Sequence record: MW929182
Strand: one strand, 5' to 3'
Length of the DNA: 58,790 nucleotides
Origin: Escherichia phage FS2B
The notes beneath the pieces were generated by a model. It was not told the origin of the DNA and ran no database searches. It worked only from the letters and a program-made list of their open reading frames with translations. Below are positions 41,535 through 46,999 of this stretch, piece by piece. The position numbers and the translations under genes are program-made. Every line of letters starts with the position of its first letter. Position 1 is the first letter of the stretch.

Positions 41535-42728
41535 TTAGTAGTTTACAACAGTGCCATCATTCAGGGTAAGACTGTTAATCTGCAACACACGACCAAGCTG
41601 GCGATCACCAATCGGTGCATTCCACCCAGAGCGGTAGAAGTTACGACCACAGAAGAACAAGATCACATTACTTGCTACAGTTGAGCCATTCTCAGGGTGC
41701 TTGATATTAGCGATGTAATAACCACGACGTAAAGTACGACGGGTTACAGGGTTGATCTCTAACCCTTGTTCTTCCACTTGCATTGTTTCAGGAACAGGCT
41801 CCGAAGACTCTTCAACAACTGGTTCAGCTGTCAATGCAAAGTTCTCGTCATCTGCTGATTCAGCAAACTCTTCCACTTCTTCAACAGGCAGTTCGTAAGC
41901 AACGCGGTAGTCAGGATCAACACCAGAGAAACTCTTAACAAACTCAACGATGTTGTGAGTGTAAGTTTCCAGAGTTGTTCCAGTCAGGCCCGGAGCTGTA
42001 TTAACTTCCAGAACCCAAGCGTTAGTACCTTTGCTAATCAGGTCAACAGCACCGAAGTTCAAACCCAGAGCAGATACAGCTTTGTGGGCTTGAATCAGAA
42101 CCTGATCAGGCGGCGCATCTTGGAAGTTTGAGGAATAAACCCAACCAGTATGATGGTTTCGAACGTCTTCACGATAGGAAGGATCTTCACGATAACCATT
42201 ACGGCGAATCTTTTTCTGAACATAGGTGATAACACCTTCAAACACATGAACACGCCATTCACGACGTGGGCCTAGAATGCCACGGGTATAGAGGGGGGCG
42301 GGAGCTACACCTTCACCCTGAAGACGAACAGTGATACCTTCTCCAGAATGACCATTCAGAATAGCACGTTCATAAACAACACTATCCAGAGTCCACTCTG
42401 AAGCCTGAGCAGCACTGTTTGTGTATTCTACAGTATGTACCCCAGCAGCTTCCAAAGTTTGAAATGCTGTCATTTTGTTAGCGGCTCGGTTCAAGGCAAC
42501 CACAGAGTTCAATACAGTTGCACCACCAAAGAAAGCATCATTATATCGACGGTTTCCATAGTTGACAACAATATCACCAACTCGAGAACGATAACGAGAG
42601 CCTTCTGATACCAGAGACATTACGTTAGCATTTAAGCGAAGTTCCTGAATCTTAGTGTTAATTGCAGAAGTAAGTTCACGAACTGAATCAGAAGGGCCAT
42701 AAGGAAGAACACGGATACGAGTAGTCAT
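41535..42728 (-). CDS. ATP-grasp ligase (RimK-like) with acidic C-terminal extension
   Basis: VVYERAILNGHSGEGITV, EWRVHVFEGV, VRNHHTGW and FGAVDLI...WVLEVNTAPGL follow the ATP-grasp motif order. Confidence 0.7.
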   Translation of the reverse strand: MTTRIRVLPYGPSDSVRELTSAINTKIQELRLNANVMSLVSEGSRYRSRVGDIVVNYGNRRYNDAFFGGATVLNSVVALNRAANKMTAFQTLEAAGVHTVEYTNSAAQASEWTLDSVVYERAILNGHSGEGITVRLQGEGVAPAPLYTRGILGPRREWRVHVFEGVITYVQKKIRRNGYREDPSYREDVRNHHTGWVYSSNFQDAPPDQVLIQAHKAVSALGLNFGAVDLISKGTNAWVLEVNTAPGLTGTTLETYTHNIVEFVKSFSGVDPDYRVAYELPVEEVEEFAESADDENFALTAEPVVEESSEPVPETMQVEEQGLEINPVTRRTLRRGYYIANIKHPENGSTVASNVILFFCGRNFYRSGWNAPIGDRQLGRVLQINSLTLNDGTVVNY

Positions 42729-43171: not shown

Positions 43172-45202
43172 TTAACCTCTATTCAATGAACATTTAGGAG
43201 AATTACAATAAACTTGATTCATAGAACCAAGCGTACAACTTTCAGCATCGCGCCACGGAATCTGCTTAAAACACTCTGAGCAGTATCCGAGGGTTGACCA
43301 CATGGCTTTGGTGAAGTCAGTGCTTCGGTTTCCGTCGAAGCTGACAACAGTTTTGCGGAGAGCTGTTCGTGATTCAGGAAACACACCTGCTTTCTCAGCA
43401 GGTTCCTCCTTTTTTGGCTTAGTTGAGATTGCAAAAATACTGTTGCTACGTTTCTCAACATAAGCATCAACAACATCCTCCAGAGTGATGCCTGTCTGTT
43501 TCGCTGAGGAAGGTAATACAGTCATACGACCGATCATATCTTCAGTTACACGTAAAGCGAATTCAGGACGACGGGCGTTTGTTGTATCTGTTGCTTTAAT
43601 CCAGACATAACCATCTTTGATCGTAGCATTAGACACTTTCTTCTTTACTTCTACAGCGCAGACTTTACAGATATCTTCACCACGAAGACGACTAAGTTCA
43701 TCATCGAACTCATTCTCTGTTTTAACTTCACCGCAGATTTCACAAACACCAATAGGAGTTTCCTCCTCTTCTTCCTCTTTAGGTTTAGTCAAACCTTCCA
43801 GACATTCAGGATGCCAATAGCACTGATATGCGAAGACTGCTTTAGGTGCATCCTTCCAATCAATGTGCTTATCACAACCACCACAATCACCATGAGAGTG
43901 CGCTTCCCAGAATTTACGAGTGATAGTAACACCATTCTTGTTGACGAAACTATCATTCATATCAAAAGGGATATCATCATCGAAGTCAGCAGTAGTTGAC
44001 TCAGGCTCCTTTTTCTCCAGAGATGGGTCAACAAAACGACCTGCTGTGATCACTAAACGGACCATAGCATTGACTTCGGAGATGCAGGATACTGTCCCAC
44101 GGTAAACAATTTTAGGGTCTTTCAGGGCATCCTGATAAGCCTTAATGTCTACGTTATGAACATCACCTTCGATATACTCTTGAGATTTCTCATCGTAGAT
44201 ATAACCAATCATCTTACCACGAGAAGGAACAGCACCGGCAGTTGCATAAGGAACAAACTCATGCGGAGTGATTTCCACAGTCATATCGCGGCGAATATCA
44301 ATGTTTCGATCGCTTGCGATTTTGTTTTGACTTACCACTGCGTTTCTTCGACGAACGTCTGCCGCTGTCACACCCGGCTTCGTGTCGTAAGGATTGCTTG
44401 TACTGCTTTTTGAGGAACTTTGATAGTTGCTTTGGCTGTAATTGTTCGAGTAGTAATTGCCCCAACGATTGACTACCGTAAAAACCGGAAGCTCGTGGGC
44501 GACCTCTTCAACCAGTGTCATGCTGTTATTAGACATGTCAAAGATATACTCTGTACCAACTTTACACTCAAAATGCTCATCAATACGGTTCTTGTGAGAC
44601 TTCGAACGCTTCAGAATCCACATCAGCATATCTTCTTCAGAAGCGCCAAACCAATCTCTGTTACAACGTGCGAGATGGAAAGGACGCTCTTCGTTACGAA
44701 TGATATGAAGGCGGTTATCAGAAGCATCATGCCAGATTAAGGTGAAAGCACCATCCAGCTTTTGAATAGTCTCTGCTGCACCAATAGTGTTAATAGAGTG
44801 GCAGATGTTCTCACTATCTACCTCGAAGTTTTTACTGTCAGGTAACAGGTCTTGGTCCATCAAGGTTCCATTATGAACCAGAGTGATGTTACCATGTTGG
44901 AAAGGATGGGCGTTCTTGGCGTTAACTGCACCTTTCGTTGCATGACGGCTGTGACCAACAATCCATGAAGGTGCTACAGTGTAAGCTGTTTCACCAGTGG
45001 TGTGCTTCTTGTACTCATCTTGTAGGATGAATGCGAAAGAAGGAAGAGCTTCTTTATAAGTGAAGACTTCCTTAGTACTTTTACGCTGACCAAAGATACC
45101 GGAGGAATGTTGTCCTCGGAATACTCCAGCATAAAAGAGTTGGTTAAATACGTCTAAATCAGTGCTTGACAGATTACCGCCAGCTAATACGATGCCACAA
45201 AT
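43172..45202 (-). CDS. class-II glutamine amidotransferase (Ntn-type) with Cys-rich C-terminal region; apparent ATT start
   Basis: Hand translation upstream of the track TTG start gives in-frame (ATT)CGIVLAGG...FRGQHSSGI...VGHSRHATKGAVNAKNAHPF..LVHNGTL..SDSE after a TAG stop two codons before the Cys; AGGTGG RBS 8 nt upstream of ATT. Confidence 0.55.
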   Translation of the reverse strand: MCGIVLAGGNLSSTDLDVFNQLFYAGVFRGQHSSGIFGQRKSTKEVFTYKEALPSFAFILQDEYKKHTTGETAYTVAPSWIVGHSRHATKGAVNAKNAHPFQHGNITLVHNGTLMDQDLLPDSKNFEVDSENICHSINTIGAAETIQKLDGAFTLIWHDASDNRLHIIRNEERPFHLARCNRDWFGASEEDMLMWILKRSKSHKNRIDEHFECKVGTEYIFDMSNNSMTLVEEVAHELPVFTVVNRWGNYYSNNYSQSNYQSSSKSSTSNPYDTKPGVTAADVRRRNAVVSQNKIASDRNIDIRRDMTVEITPHEFVPYATAGAVPSRGKMIGYIYDEKSQEYIEGDVHNVDIKAYQDALKDPKIVYRGTVSCISEVNAMVRLVITAGRFVDPSLEKKEPESTTADFDDDIPFDMNDSFVNKNGVTITRKFWEAHSHGDCGGCDKHIDWKDAPKAVFAYQCYWHPECLEGLTKPKEEEEEETPIGVCEICGEVKTENEFDDELSRLRGEDICKVCAVEVKKKVSNATIKDGYVWIKATDTTNARRPEFALRVTEDMIGRMTVLPSSAKQTGITLEDVVDAYVEKRSNSIFAISTKPKKEEPAEKAGVFPESRTALRKTVVSFDGNRSTDFTKAMWSTLGYCSECFKQIPWRDAESCTLGSMNQVYCNSPKCSLNRG

Positions 45203-45281
45203 TTTCTAATCCACCTGAAGGGTAAACCCTTTCATCTAATTAACCTTTAAATTGTGCCCCTTTATCAGAGGCACCCATTGA

Positions 45282-46385
45282 TTACAGCGCTTGCTCTAAC
45301 TGATTTTCCAGATGGTCTGGAATGTACCCTGTGATATTGCTATCACTGTGACCTGACTCACGTAGTAAGTCAAAAATAGCACGGATACGCTGTTCTGGAG
45401 CGTGTCTTACTTGAGATAGGTCTGCTGTACGAAGCATAACCAAAATCTCTTGGTACAAGTTGTTAGCGTTCCCTCGGACATACCCAAGGAAGCCATAGAA
45501 GTCTGACATAAGACGTAAGTCAACAAGAGCCTCTCCGTTGGAGTTGGTTCGACGTAAACGAATACGACCAGACTGTTCTACTTCATGAGAACGGCAATAC
45601 AAAACATCACGGGCCATACAATATCCTGAATGCAAATCAGATTCATCCAGATTGTAATCCAGAGGAAGGTAAGGAAGCATTGGGGCAAATCGTACAGTAT
45701 TTAAGTGCTCAATAAACTGATCATTGCTCATATCTGCGTTATCTAAAGCCAGCTTCTTCAACATCAAGAAGCGGTTAACCAGATTGAGAAGTTGACCACG
45801 TTTCCACTTAGGCTCACTGATACGGAACTCAATTGAACCGTATTGGGCAAGTGGCAGAAGGTTCAGAGATGTATATTTATCCCATGAACGAACCAGACGG
45901 TTGAAGAATTCTTCACCATCGTAGTTAAATGCGTCAGAGGCATTCATTACCTGTGCTTGTACCACTGCAAACGCAGGGCAGAAATTGCTACGGTAACGAT
46001 GGTAGCCTGAACACTTGAACAGCATCTTTTCATAGAAGGTCCAAGCAAGGATGGTCTTCTTGAGGATATTACTATCAGCATCCCTCATATCCATATGAAC
46101 GTGAGTAGAGCAACGCCAAGTCCCCTCGGCGTGCGATTCAGCTACTGCTTCACTCAGGTTGTTGATAGCGTCTAACAACTCCTGTCCGTTGTAAGGTCGT
46201 GAACATACCATTTCACAACCGTTACGCAGGGAACCATCCTCTGTGCAATCCCACATATCTGCTTCGATATGTTCAGAACCTTCGAGTTCAAGTTCAATAC
46301 CGACACCGCACTGAAGTGCAATTGAACTATGCGCCTCAGTTAAACGACCTTCTCGATATCCAAAAGTTTGCGCTACAGTTGTCAT
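45282..46385 (-). CDS. carboxylate-amine ligase (amidoligase, glutamine-synthetase-like fold)
   Basis: GIELELEG, EDGSLRNGCEMVCSRP and STHVHMD resemble the amidoligase/GCS2 conserved blocks. Confidence 0.55.
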   Translation of the reverse strand: MTTVAQTFGYREGRLTEAHSSIALQCGVGIELELEGSEHIEADMWDCTEDGSLRNGCEMVCSRPYNGQELLDAINNLSEAVAESHAEGTWRCSTHVHMDMRDADSNILKKTILAWTFYEKMLFKCSGYHRYRSNFCPAFAVVQAQVMNASDAFNYDGEEFFNRLVRSWDKYTSLNLLPLAQYGSIEFRISEPKWKRGQLLNLVNRFLMLKKLALDNADMSNDQFIEHLNTVRFAPMLPYLPLDYNLDESDLHSGYCMARDVLYCRSHEVEQSGRIRLRRTNSNGEALVDLRLMSDFYGFLGYVRGNANNLYQEILVMLRTADLSQVRHAPEQRIRAIFDLLRESGHSDSNITGYIPDHLENQLEQAL

Positions 46386-46999
46386 AACGAATCCACCAAC
46401 GTAATATTATAATTGCTAAGGTTTTCAGAGATGTGATGAAAATGCTCCAGAAGTCGCATCGGTTGTTGACCGTAAGAGTCACGAGGCGCTTCCAGATCTA
46501 CCTGACCTACCAGTGCACCTTTATAATGCACTTTACCATCTGTAGGATTGATGTAAATATAACGAGTAACCAATCCATCAAATTCAGGATTGAACAGACT
46601 GTAAACCATTTCACCAGAGATCGAACGACCAATCCCCGGAGCGTTTCGAATCTTGTTACCCATCAAACCCTTCGCTCTCTGACGAACAGGATTGATATGA
46701 GTCCAGCTTACAGTGTTACCGTTATGGAACAGATAACCAACATCAGGTGATTCGAGAATCAAGGTTGGGTCGAACACTGGAATATTCATCGTAGTGTTTC
46801 GGAGATTCCCATGCTCGTTCTTGTACCACTGCTCTACAACAAAATACAGAGCCTGTTCTGCTTCATGCGAGAAGTCATCGCTGCGGAAGTTACCGCTCTG
46901 CTCAACACCAATCACAAAACACGGAAGGTTGATATTGCCTGCTCGTTTAGCAATCCATGTACCATTATAGTAATGAGAAAAATCAGCTACTAAGCTCAC
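46382..46999 (-). CDS. hypothetical protein within the ligase operon
   Basis: Track ORF; 4-nt overlap with the amidoligase gene. Confidence 0.45.
   Translation of the reverse strand: MSLVADFSHYYNGTWIAKRAGNINLPCFVIGVEQSGNFRSDDFSHEAEQALYFVVEQWYKNEHGNLRNTTMNIPVFDPTLILESPDVGYLFHNGNTVSWTHINPVRQRAKGLMGNKIRNAPGIGRSISGEMVYSLFNPEFDGLVTRYIYINPTDGKVHYKGALVGQVDLEAPRDSYGQQPMRLLEHFHHISENLSNYNITLVDSL

What the first reader, a model, noticed from the sequence alone, without database searches (positions are those of the whole stretch)
45170..45230. Glutamine amidotransferase gene appears to start at ATT, with the catalytic Cys codon two codons after an in-frame stop
Hand translation of the minus strand upstream of the track ORF start (a TTG at 44863) gives TAG-AAA-ATT-TGT-GGC-ATC-GTA, continuing as CGIVLAGG..FRGQHSSGI..NAHPF..LVHNG. 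Class-II amidotransferases need Cys as the first mature residue, and the only codon between the stop and the Cys codon that could initiate is ATT (plus 45200..45202), 8 nt after an AGGTGG Shine-Dalgarno. The track ORF therefore misses about 113 N-terminal residues, including the nucleophile. This is either genuine non-AUG initiation, possibly expression control, or a start-codon mutation that has inactivated the gene.
Basis: seen in the sequence. Interest (0 to 1): 0.6.

Follow-up and report, generated by a model that had tools for sequence, protein, structure and literature searches.

The report
Conserved ATT start of phage amidotransferase
The phage's glutamine amidotransferase gene really does begin at the rare start codon ATT; reference annotations already record this, but the ATT belongs to a conserved hairpin plus ribosome-binding-site module, shared by many distantly related phages, that probably limits or conditions synthesis of the enzyme.

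Summary
On the minus strand the sequence reads TAG(45208-06) AAA ATT(45202-00) TGT(45199-97), with AGGTGG 8 nt upstream. The ATT-initiated ORF is 676 aa, and its Cys2 aligns with the mature Cys1 nucleophile of GlmS and PurF.

It is neither an error nor a dead gene. The window is a phiEco32-like Kuravirus, and 68 phage records carry the identical 81 nt around the ATT. Three genera share the 47-nt leader unchanged although their synonymous sites are saturated. Codons 2-113 are under strong purifying selection.

GenBank and RefSeq records of phiEco32, SU10 and Bas91 already start the CDS at this ATT, so the bare finding is known. Many other records truncate the gene.

What I could not find described is the wider pattern. 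In a protein-based survey, 10 of 65 homologous phage loci start at ATT. ATT lineages are scattered across the family tree. Nearly all combine three features:
- a GGAGG-type Shine-Dalgarno site exactly 8 nt from the ATT, the geometry of E. coli infC;
- usually the identical spacer ATTAGAAA;
- a covarying hairpin that abuts the Shine-Dalgarno site. None of 50 ATG lineages has one.

Most likely this is genuine AUU initiation used to throttle or condition expression, by analogy IF3- and ppGpp-sensitive. That regulatory step is inferred, not shown.

The parts
43172..45202 (-). Full class-II (Ntn) glutamine amidotransferase CDS, ATT start to stop; 676 aa (phiEco32 gp83 orthologue)
   Evidence: identical CDS boundaries are annotated in phiEco32, SU10 and Bas91
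45200..45202 (-). ATT (AUU) initiation codon
   Evidence: It is the only possible initiator between the in-frame TAG and the Cys codon, and is conserved
45197..45199 (-). TGT codon for the catalytic N-terminal Cys (Cys1 after Met removal)
   Evidence: Invariant C2 in alignment A2; aligns with Cys1 of GlmS structure 1xff and of PurF
45203..45210 (-). 8-nt spacer ATTAGAAA, containing the in-frame stop TAG (45208-45206)
   Evidence: Identical in Kuravirus-group phages, Aeromonas phage BUCT695, Melvirus T4S1, L031 and at least 7 metagenomic lineages
45211..45216 (-). Shine-Dalgarno sequence AGGTGG (AGGAGG in most other ATT lineages)
   Evidence: the GGAGG-N8-ATT geometry equals that of E. coli infC
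45218..45231 (-). Hairpin AAGGG-TTTA-CCCTT, ending 1 nt before the Shine-Dalgarno site
   Evidence: covarying helix at the same position in 11 of 14 ATT lineages, absent from 50 ATG lineages
45206..45235 (-). In-frame 9-codon mini-ORF (ATG AAA GGG TTT ACC CTT CAG GTG GAT TAG) overlapping the hairpin and the Shine-Dalgarno site; probably incidental
   Evidence: Present in Kuravirus-group phages and BUCT695, absent from T4S1, L031 and the metagenomic lineages
45254..45274 (-). Terminator-like hairpin GTGCCTCT-GATAA-AGGGGCAC after the upstream amidoligase gene
   Evidence: fold; compensatory differences between genera; annotated as 'terminator' in phage WFI101126
45282..46385 (-). Upstream gene, Amidoligase_2 family (phiEco32 gp84 orthologue)
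44861..44863 (-). TTG where the mechanical ORF call begins (codon 114 of the real gene); not the start
   Evidence: the codons upstream of it are under purifying selection

Best explanation
Translation of the amidotransferase starts at AUU 45202-45200. Initiator tRNA inserts fMet there. Deformylase and methionine aminopeptidase then expose Cys1, the nucleophile that every class-II amidotransferase needs at its N-terminus. Because the start codon must sit directly before the Cys codon, expression can only be tuned through the identity of the start codon and its leader.

These phages use a dedicated leader module: a short hairpin abutting the Shine-Dalgarno site, a strong GGAGG-type Shine-Dalgarno site, an A-rich 8-nt spacer (ATTAGAAA) and AUU. 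The strong, optimally spaced Shine-Dalgarno site and the hairpin make a weak codon usable. The hairpin plausibly keeps the Shine-Dalgarno site free of upstream pairing, or docks or stacks on the 30S platform. AUU keeps output low and, by analogy with infC, makes it depend on IF3 discrimination and on ppGpp and nutrient state.

Shown: the sequence, its conservation, selection on the N-terminal domain, the covarying hairpin, and the infC-like geometry.

Inferred: that AUU is decoded as the start, what the hairpin does, and any IF3, ppGpp or dosage role.
For: - Sequence and frame.
- Family N-terminus is Met-Cys-Gly: 52 of 65 surveyed loci read ATG-TGY-GG. Cys aligns with Cys1 of mature GlmS and PurF, and the Arg, Thr, Asn-Gly and Asp motifs are invariant.
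- Not an error or a pseudogene: 68 records are identical over 81 nt and 98 cover at least 80% of it. Every representative read, from 3 Gordonclarkvirinae genera plus TH34, has ATT. Codons 2-113 show pN 0.13-0.16 against pS 0.68-0.76.
- The 47-nt leader is 100% identical between those genera despite saturated synonymous sites.
- Only ATT accompanies the spacer: every GGATTAGAAANNNTGTGG hit in IMG/VR that lies in front of an amidotransferase ORF has NNN = ATT. The metagenome scan found 22 sites in front of ICG... ORFs, 18 of them with clearly amidotransferase-like N-termini from about 10 lineages with very different proteins.
- ATT also occurs with other spacers (L215, L240, L243), always with GGA ending 7 nt before the ATT.
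- Shine-Dalgarno pairing is stronger in ATT than in ATG lineages: median -10.2 against -6.0 kcal/mol.
- A hairpin with its 3' end at -15 or -16 is found in 14 of 17 ATT entries and 0 of 50 ATG entries. Shuffles rarely match it. On the model-based alignment, 92.7% of cells pair against 48% in shuffles, and 6 of 6 pairs have double changes.
- E. coli infC reads GGAGG-AATAAGGT-ATT, the same 8-nt spacing.
- The protein is made during infection: 9 peptides in the SU10 proteome (PMC4281155).
- AUU is a non-canonical start discriminated by IF3. Non-AUG mRNAs are preferentially inhibited by ppGpp and nutrient limitation, and AUU gave about 5% of AUG in one reporter (PMC5499595).
Against: - There is no direct evidence for initiation at this AUU. 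The SU10 paper lists an expected mass of 63.8 kDa for this protein, which equals the mass I calculate for the truncated 563-aa ORF. So its peptides say nothing about the N-terminus.
- In the Kuravirus group the Shine-Dalgarno site is AGGTGG, with a calculated pairing of only -5.9 kcal/mol. The 'strong site compensates' argument is therefore weaker for this window than for most other ATT lineages.
- The apparent invariance of ATTAGAAA is partly imposed by the search patterns used.
- Lineages are not statistically independent, and deep nodes of the neighbour-joining tree are unreliable.
- Alignment A5 was fitted to the model's structure and so leans towards it.
- The IF3, ppGpp and dosage role rests on analogy only.
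- 3 of 14 ATT lineages lack a convincing hairpin by the simple search.
Confidence: 0.8

Rival explanations
1. The ATT is a start-codon mutation (ATG to ATT) that has inactivated the gene. The amidotransferase domain is a decaying pseudogene, and at most a C-terminal fragment is made from TTG or ATG near 44863.
For: AUU is normally a poor initiator (PMC5499595). Gene callers truncate the ORF in many records: the mechanical list, EcM-vB1, KBNP1711 and EP335, BUCT695. The expected mass of 63.8 kDa in the SU10 paper equals the calculated mass of the truncated ORF.
Against: The ATT and its leader are identical in 68 records and in three genera. Codons 2-113 are as constrained as codons 114-250, with omega about 0.08. 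All catalytic residues are intact. ATT recurs in many other lineages with the same leader architecture. No Shine-Dalgarno site is visible before the TTG at 44863.
Confidence: 0.02
2. Sequencing or assembly error: the true codon is ATG.
For: ATT and ATG differ at a single base.
Against: Independent genomes sequenced over about 17 years on different platforms, plus IMG/VR and metagenome contigs, all read ATT. No GGATTAGAAA-ATG-TGTGG variant in front of an amidotransferase ORF was found in IMG/VR.
Confidence: 0.01
3. The protein is made from the upstream in-frame mini-ORF (ATG 45235), by one of two routes. Readthrough of TAG 45208-06 would give a 12-residue propeptide that is autocatalytically removed, as in B. 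subtilis PurF. Alternatively, termination at TAG followed by 70S re-initiation at the AUU 3 nt downstream.
For: The mini-ORF is in frame and conserved in Kuravirus-group phages and BUCT695. Its stop lies 3 nt before the AUU, much as the thrS stop TAA lies 3 nt before the infC AUU. AAGG lies 8 nt before its ATG.
Against: T4S1 and L031 have the same Shine-Dalgarno site, spacer and ATT but no upstream ATG in frame. No conserved equivalent of the mini-ORF is apparent in the metagenomic leaders, although their frames were not checked one by one. BUCT695 has no Shine-Dalgarno site before the mini-ORF ATG, and both of its differences from Kuravirus change the peptide. The only tRNA in the window is tRNA-Arg(TCT), so there is no suppressor. 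Re-initiation could still contribute in the Kuravirus group.
Confidence: 0.06
4. The conserved inverted repeat next to the Shine-Dalgarno site acts at the DNA level, as an operator for a dimeric regulator or as a recombination or endonuclease site, rather than as an RNA hairpin. The leader's conservation would then reflect protein binding, not translation.
For: In BUCT695 the repeat is a perfect 14-bp palindrome, AAGGGTTAACCCTT. The whole 47-nt leader, not only the stem, is invariant in Gordonclarkvirinae. An HNH homing endonuclease gene sits directly upstream in T4S1.
Against: Stem sequences are unrelated between lineages while pairing is kept, which fits a structure rather than a sequence-specific site. 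The palindrome occurs only once in the 58.8-kb window. The position is fixed relative to the Shine-Dalgarno site and the ATT. It co-occurs with ATT and never with ATG.
Confidence: 0.08

Closest known systems
E. coli infC (IF3) initiation region with an AUU start
   Same: AUU is the only initiator. The GGAGG Shine-Dalgarno site lies exactly 8 nt upstream: infC GGAGG-AATAAGGT-ATT against the phage module GGAGG-ATTAGAAA-ATT. Both have an in-frame stop two codons before the AUU. The rare start codon is phylogenetically conserved.
   Different: infC has no hairpin abutting the Shine-Dalgarno site by the same search. In infC the AUU serves autoregulation by its own product, IF3. Here the product is a metabolic enzyme and any IF3 dependence is untested. 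This window has AGGTGG rather than GGAGG.
E. coli pcnB (poly(A) polymerase I) AUU start
   Same: AUU initiation of an enzyme-coding gene, generally interpreted as keeping expression low (my own knowledge). RefSeq annotates the ATT start.
   Different: pcnB has GAGGT with a 5-nt spacer and no adjacent hairpin. The two leaders show no obvious similarity by eye.
Class-II (Ntn, PurF-type) glutamine amidotransferase domains of GlmS, PurF and AsnB
   Same: The profile of the phage family aligns from Met-Cys to residue 1 of mature GlmS and PurF (E = 1e-17 to 1e-12). Cys1 and the Arg-Gly, Arg..Thr, Asn-Gly and Asp motifs are invariant. Pfam GATase_6 and GATase_7 hits lie above their cut-offs.
   Different: There is no sugar-isomerase or phosphoribosyltransferase acceptor domain. 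Residues from about 200 to 676 have no Pfam match. The gene lies in a phage cluster with Amidoligase_2, a COOH-NH2 ligase and an ATP-grasp enzyme whose product is unknown. The database name 'L-glutamine-D-fructose-6-phosphate aminotransferase' is not supported.
B. subtilis PurF-type propeptide processing
   Same: Both solve the same problem: Cys must become residue 1.
   Different: PurF of B. subtilis encodes an 11-residue propeptide that is cleaved off (my own knowledge). Here an in-frame TAG two codons upstream excludes an encoded propeptide, and homologues start Met-Cys.

Membership tests
Class-II (Ntn) glutamine amidotransferase | Catalytic Cys is the first residue of the mature protein, directly after the initiator Met or a propeptide | tested here: met
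   ATT-TGT with an in-frame TAG two codons upstream. M1-C2-G3 is invariant in 17 family members. It aligns with Cys1 of the mature GlmS chain 1xff_A.
Class-II (Ntn) glutamine amidotransferase | Conserved glutaminase residues (GlmS numbering Arg26, Arg73, Thr76, Asn98-Gly99, Asp123) | tested here: met
   R29-G30, R86, T89, N111-G112 and D129 are invariant in A2 and are aligned to the GlmS motifs RG, RWAT, HNG and DTE.
Class-II (Ntn) glutamine amidotransferase | Significant match to curated family profiles | tested here: met
   GATase_6 at 55 bits (cut-off 27) and GATase_7 at 27.4 bits (cut-off 25). GATase_4 at 21.2 bits is below its cut-off of 23.
Class-II (Ntn) glutamine amidotransferase | Glutamine hydrolysis with ammonia transfer to an acceptor | not testable with these tools
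   Needs an enzyme assay. The acceptor is unknown.
GlmS (glutamine-fructose-6-phosphate aminotransferase), as named in many records | C-terminal SIS sugar-isomerase domains | tested here: not met
   No SIS or other Pfam domain beyond residue 193.
infC-type AUU start (IF3-discriminated initiation region) | AUU is the only available initiator, preceded by a Shine-Dalgarno site at functional spacing | tested here: met
   The 8-nt spacing is the same as in infC. In all ATT lineages GGA ends 7 nt before the ATT.
infC-type AUU start (IF3-discriminated initiation region) | Evolutionary conservation of the non-canonical codon | tested here: met
   Conserved in Kuravirus, Suseptimavirus and Nieuwekanaalvirus, in BUCT695, in a Melvirus and in about 10 metagenomic lineages. 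Across the whole family it is patchy: 10 of 65 loci.
infC-type AUU start (IF3-discriminated initiation region) | Translation repressed by IF3 and raised when the start is changed to AUG | not testable with these tools
   Needs reporter fusions, IF3 titration or toeprinting.
Propeptide-processed Ntn amidotransferase (B. subtilis PurF type) | Encoded N-terminal propeptide upstream of the Cys | tested here: not met
   In-frame TAG at 45208-45206. No conserved upstream ORF in T4S1 or L031, and none apparent in the metagenomic leaders.
Programmed stop-codon readthrough or recoding | Conserved upstream in-frame ORF with its own start, plus a suppressor tRNA or a readthrough signal | tested here: not met
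   The mini-ORF is present only in Kuravirus-group phages and BUCT695. The only tRNA is tRNA-Arg(TCT). No Rfam recoding element reached its threshold.

The most novel reading that the evidence does not exclude
The hairpin + GGAGG + AUUAGAAA + AUU leader is a discrete translational control cassette specific to phage class-II amidotransferase genes. It would be either ancient and frozen, or repeatedly exchanged between phages of E. coli, Aeromonas and marine bacteria. It would act as a sensor of the host's translational state (free IF3, ppGpp), so that a glutamine-consuming enzyme is made only in a particular window of infection or nutrient condition. The hairpin abutting the Shine-Dalgarno site would be a previously unrecognised helper that licenses initiation at AUU.
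Probability: 0.25. Interest if true: 0.7.

Novelty: new variant of a known kind. Interest (0 to 1): 0.45.

Why it matters
1. Annotation. A large share of deposited genomes of phiEco32-like, Aeromonas and marine phages truncate this gene and lose the catalytic Cys. Functional predictions for the conserved amidoligase, amidotransferase and ATP-grasp cluster therefore start from a wrong protein. The name 'GlmS' attached to it is also unsupported.

2. Biology. Conserved AUU starts are very rare in bacteria; infC and pcnB are the textbook cases. This is a family in which about 15% of surveyed loci use AUU, always in one recognisable architecture, and that architecture includes a covarying hairpin that infC and pcnB lack. 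It offers a natural, phylogenetically replicated system for asking what makes AUU usable, and why a phage would want a deliberately weak or IF3-sensitive start on a glutamine-hydrolysing enzyme.

Tried and rejected
- Readthrough, propeptide or re-initiation from the in-frame mini-ORF. Rejected as a general mechanism because other ATT lineages lack the ORF and there is no suppressor tRNA.
- Frameshifting on the A-AAA-UUU-G run. By hand, neither -1 nor +1 slippage from any upstream frame leads into the ORF, and no upstream ORF exists in most lineages.
- Out-of-frame UUG or GUG overlapping the AUU. Both frames hit stops within 4-8 codons.
- Known RNA families. Rfam gave only sub-threshold noise: TLS-PK6 at 16.7 bits and astro_FSE at 14.2 bits.
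- The long-range helix GGUUAAU/AUUAGCU plus GAUG/CAUC in the minimum-energy fold. The z-score is only -1.5 and the pairing is not kept in BUCT695.
- A repeated operator. The palindrome is unique in the window.
- A phage sigma (gp36) promoter. Matches to the consensus tAATGTAtA in the window are at chance level and none lies here. Published gp36 promoters lie upstream of genes 6, 13, 26, 40, 58 and 68 only (PMC4331800). No sigma-70-like promoter was found on the minus strand.
- Presence in cellular genomes. The single genome-contig hit precedes a 15-codon ORF and is a chance match.
- The search for related loci with the 17-member alignment failed because the alignment was too diverse. It was repeated with 6 members.
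- The original phiEco32 paper (Savalia et al. 2008) could not be read. I therefore cannot say whether its text mentions the ATT. No paper in the searchable library mentions it.
Full report
**What is in the sequence**

The minus strand reads CCCTTC-AGGTGG-ATTAGAAA-ATT-TGT-GGC-ATC-GTA. The coordinates are:
- TAG 45208-45206
- ATT 45202-45200
- TGT (Cys) 45199-45197
- AGGTGG 45216-45211

Translation gives *KICGIVLAGG...FRGQHSSGI...NAHPF...LVHNG. The mechanical ORF list begins this frame at TTG 44863, giving 563 aa. Starting at the ATT adds exactly 113 codons, giving 676 aa. Pfam GATase_6 and GATase_7 hits fall in residues 76-193, so they straddle the TTG.

**Where the window comes from, and what is already annotated**

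The region is 97-100% identical to phiEco32-like phages (Kuravirus, subfamily Gordonclarkvirinae).

GenBank EU330206 and RefSeq NC_010324 annotate phi32_83 from locus position 3299 of L001. That position is the A of this same ATT. SU10 (KM044272) and Bas91 (PQ850614) do the same. The ATT start has therefore been in public annotation since 2008.

Other records truncate the gene:
- EcM-vB1
- KBNP1711 and EP335
- Aeromonas phage BUCT695, at an internal ATG
- Melvirus T4S1

**Is it an error or a dead gene?**

No, for four reasons.
- An 81-nt query centred on the ATT is matched exactly by 68 phage records, and 98 records cover at least 80% of it. Every representative I read has ATT: phiEco32, ECBP2, KBNP1711, EP335, SU7, TH34, and the IMG/VR and metagenome contigs.
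- Between the window and KBNP1711 or ECBP2, codons 2-113 have pS 0.68-0.76 (saturated) but pN only 0.13-0.16. That matches codons 114-250.
- A 17-member family alignment has M1, C2, G3, R29, G30, H84, R86, T89, H99, P100, F101, N111, G112, D129 and S130 invariant.
- Its profile aligns from Met-Cys to residue 1 of mature E. coli GlmS (1xff) and PurF, with the RG, R..T, NG and D motifs in register.

The protein was detected in the SU10 proteome with 9 peptides (PMC4281155). That paper lists an expected mass of 63.8 kDa for it. This equals the mass I calculate for the truncated 563-aa ORF, whereas the full protein is 76.1 kDa. So the proteome does not report on the N-terminus.

**Do homologues put the Cys at the N-terminus?**

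Yes. More distant phage homologues read ATG-TGT/C-GG. These include Proteus 3H10_20, Cronobacter A24, Salmonella 7-11, Aeromonas LAh_6, Pseudoalteromonas HP1, Pseudomonas JB8 and IMG/VR contigs.

I ran a protein-based, start-codon-blind survey of IMG/VR. The Cys-Gly N-terminus could be located in 65 loci:

| Start codon | Loci |
|---|---|
| ATG | 52 |
| ATT | 10 |
| GTG | 1 |
| TTG | 1 |
| mis-registered | 1 |

Among 55 non-identical N-termini, 6 start at ATT.

**The leader is the real surprise**

The 47 nt upstream of the ATT are identical in three Gordonclarkvirinae genera whose synonymous sites are saturated.

Aeromonas phage BUCT695 belongs to a different family, the Grimontviridae. Its protein is 54% identical to the window's and clusters with ATG-starting Cronobacter and Salmonella phages. 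It nevertheless differs from the Kuravirus leader at only 2 positions.

A marine Melvirus, T4S1, has a protein about 35% identical. Its leader reads AGGGGT-TGTG-ACCCCT-AGGAGG-ATTAGAAA-ATT-TGTGG. L031 has an unrelated hairpin followed by the same AGGAGGATTAGAAAATTTGTGG.

In IMG/VR, every GGATTAGAAANNNTGTGG hit in front of an amidotransferase ORF has NNN = ATT. ORFs. Eighteen of them have clearly amidotransferase-like N-termini, from about 10 lineages with very different proteins. No genuine instance occurs in 185,579 bacterial and archaeal genomes.

**Architecture linked to ATT**

Three features go with the ATT.

1. Shine-Dalgarno site. All ATT lineages, including three with other spacers (L215, L240, L243), have a GGAGG-type site whose GGA ends exactly 7 nt before the ATT. 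Pairing to the anti-Shine-Dalgarno sequence is stronger than in ATG lineages: median -10.2 against -6.0 kcal/mol.
2. Hairpin.
   - A stable hairpin with its 3' end at -15 or -16, abutting the Shine-Dalgarno site, occurs in 14 of 17 ATT entries (11 of 14 lineages) and in 0 of 50 ATG lineages. Shuffles seldom match it.
   - Stems are unrelated in sequence. Examples are AAGGG/CCCTT, AGGGGT/ACCCCT, GCATGT/ACATGC, CCTGA/TCAGG, GCAGG/CCTGC, GCCATC/GGTGGC and CCGGC/GCCGG.
   - A covariance model built from three lineages recovered 16 ATT leaders and only one weak ATG hit.
   - On that alignment, 92.7% of cells pair against 48% in shuffles and about 38% when partners are slid. All 6 pairs show double changes, and 0 of 500 shuffles reach the observed values. 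The caveat is that the alignment was fitted to the model.
3. Geometry. E. coli infC reads GGAGG-AATAAGGT-ATT, the same 8-nt spacing, and also has an in-frame stop two codons upstream. Neither infC nor pcnB has the adjacent hairpin.

**Evolution**

On a neighbour-joining tree of 70 N-terminal domains, ATT/ATTAGAAA lineages are scattered, each with ATG sisters. Deep nodes are unreliable, but two shallow cases are clear: BUCT695 beside A24, and the Kuravirus group beside L188, L189 and L192.

ATG relatives keep recognisable remnants of the leader, for example L189 GAGGATTATAAG-ATG. I cannot decide between two scenarios: an ancestral ATT module that was repeatedly replaced by ATG, with loss of the hairpin, or horizontal spread of the module.

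**Mechanism**

I take AUU 45202-45200 as the true start (confidence about 0.8). fMet is inserted and then removed to expose Cys1, which is established biochemistry for GlmS, PurF and AsnB.

The Cys codon must follow the start codon directly. Expression can therefore only be tuned through the start codon and the leader. AUU is non-canonical and discriminated by IF3. It gave about 5% of AUG in one reporter. Non-AUG mRNAs are preferentially inhibited by ppGpp and nutrient limitation (PMC5499595).

The strong, optimally spaced Shine-Dalgarno site and the hairpin would make the weak codon usable. The AUU would keep output low or conditional. The role of the hairpin (insulating the Shine-Dalgarno site, or stacking or docking on the 30S platform) and any IF3 or ppGpp sensing are inferences.

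**Rivals**

Pseudogene, sequencing error, readthrough or re-initiation from the in-frame mini-ORF (45235-45206), and a DNA-level operator were all considered. They are given with their evidence under the rival explanations.

**Verdict**

The bare fact is already in reference annotations, so on its own it is ordinary. I could not find the conserved, hairpin-coupled, infC-like AUU module across diverse phages described in any paper I could search. It is a moderately interesting new variant of a known phenomenon.

Noticed in passing
window 45241-45252 (minus strand TTTAAAGGTTAA); L009-L012, L020-L022, L008 upstream of the amidotransferase gene: Between the terminator-like hairpin and the Shine-Dalgarno site, many relatives carry TTTAAATGTAA(A/T). 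These include Proteus, Cronobacter, Salmonella 7-11, BUCT695, L020 and L021. The motif resembles the phiEco32 gp36 promoter consensus tAATGTAtA. No gp36 promoter is reported upstream of gene 83, and the Kuravirus version is degenerate (AAAGGTTAA).
   Followed up: partly
window 45254-45274 (minus strand): A terminator-like hairpin follows the amidoligase gene. It shows compensatory differences between genera (GGGTGCC...GGGGCAC against GGGCGC...GGGCGC) and has no clear U-tract. One GenBank record (WFI101126) annotates it as a terminator.
   Followed up: partly
window 43172-44600 (minus strand; residues about 200-676 of the amidotransferase): The C-terminal roughly 480 residues have no Pfam match. 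They contain three Cys4 zinc-ribbon-like motifs (HGDCGGC...CYWHPEC; CEICG...CKVCA; CSECF...CNSPKC) and an acidic KPKEEEEEE linker. Marine homologues are only about 410-420 aa, so they probably lack most of this extension. Its function is unknown.
   Followed up: no
L030 1025-1504 (phage T4S1, PQ867847.1): An HNH/His-Me homing-endonuclease gene is inserted directly upstream of the ATT leader in this Melvirus. The related phage HP1 has a small hypothetical ORF there and an ATG start. Endonuclease-driven co-conversion could be one route by which the leader moves between phages.
   Followed up: partly
window 45206-45235 (minus strand): A nine-codon mini-ORF, MKGFTLQVD*, lies in frame with the amidotransferase gene and overlaps the hairpin and the Shine-Dalgarno site. 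It is conserved only in Gordonclarkvirinae and BUCT695. Both BUCT695 substitutions change the peptide (F to L, V to A).
   Followed up: yes
L003, L005, L006, L008, L030 (GenBank records of EcM-vB1, KBNP1711, EP335, BUCT695, T4S1): Many deposited genomes annotate a 5'-truncated amidotransferase that lacks the catalytic Cys. Many also name it 'L-glutamine-D-fructose-6-phosphate aminotransferase' although no SIS domain is present.
   Followed up: partly
L258 939-965 (E. coli infC start region): The stop codon of thrS (TAA) lies in frame two codons before the infC AUU (TAA GGT ATT). This matches the position of TAG in the phage module (TAG AAA ATT). It may be a coincidence, or a shared requirement for a stop just upstream of an AUU start.
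   Followed up: no
window 41535-42728, 45282-46385, 46382-46999 and further upstream (minus strand): The amidotransferase gene sits in a conserved cluster: COOH-NH2 ligase, a hypothetical gene, Amidoligase_2, the amidotransferase, two small ORFs, and an ATP-grasp (RimK-like) enzyme. Marine relatives add gamma-glutamyl cyclotransferase and a Peptidase_C26 gamma-glutamyl hydrolase. This suggests a gamma-glutamyl or peptide-ligation pathway of unknown product.
   Followed up: partly
window 45166-45193 (plus strand): A good sigma-70-like match (TTGACA-16-TACGAT, 10 of 12) lies antisense to the first codons of the amidotransferase gene. The count is at chance level for the region (1 found, 0.9 expected).
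   Followed up: no
window 54553-54628 (minus strand): The only tRNA gene in the window is tRNA-Arg(TCT).
   Followed up: no
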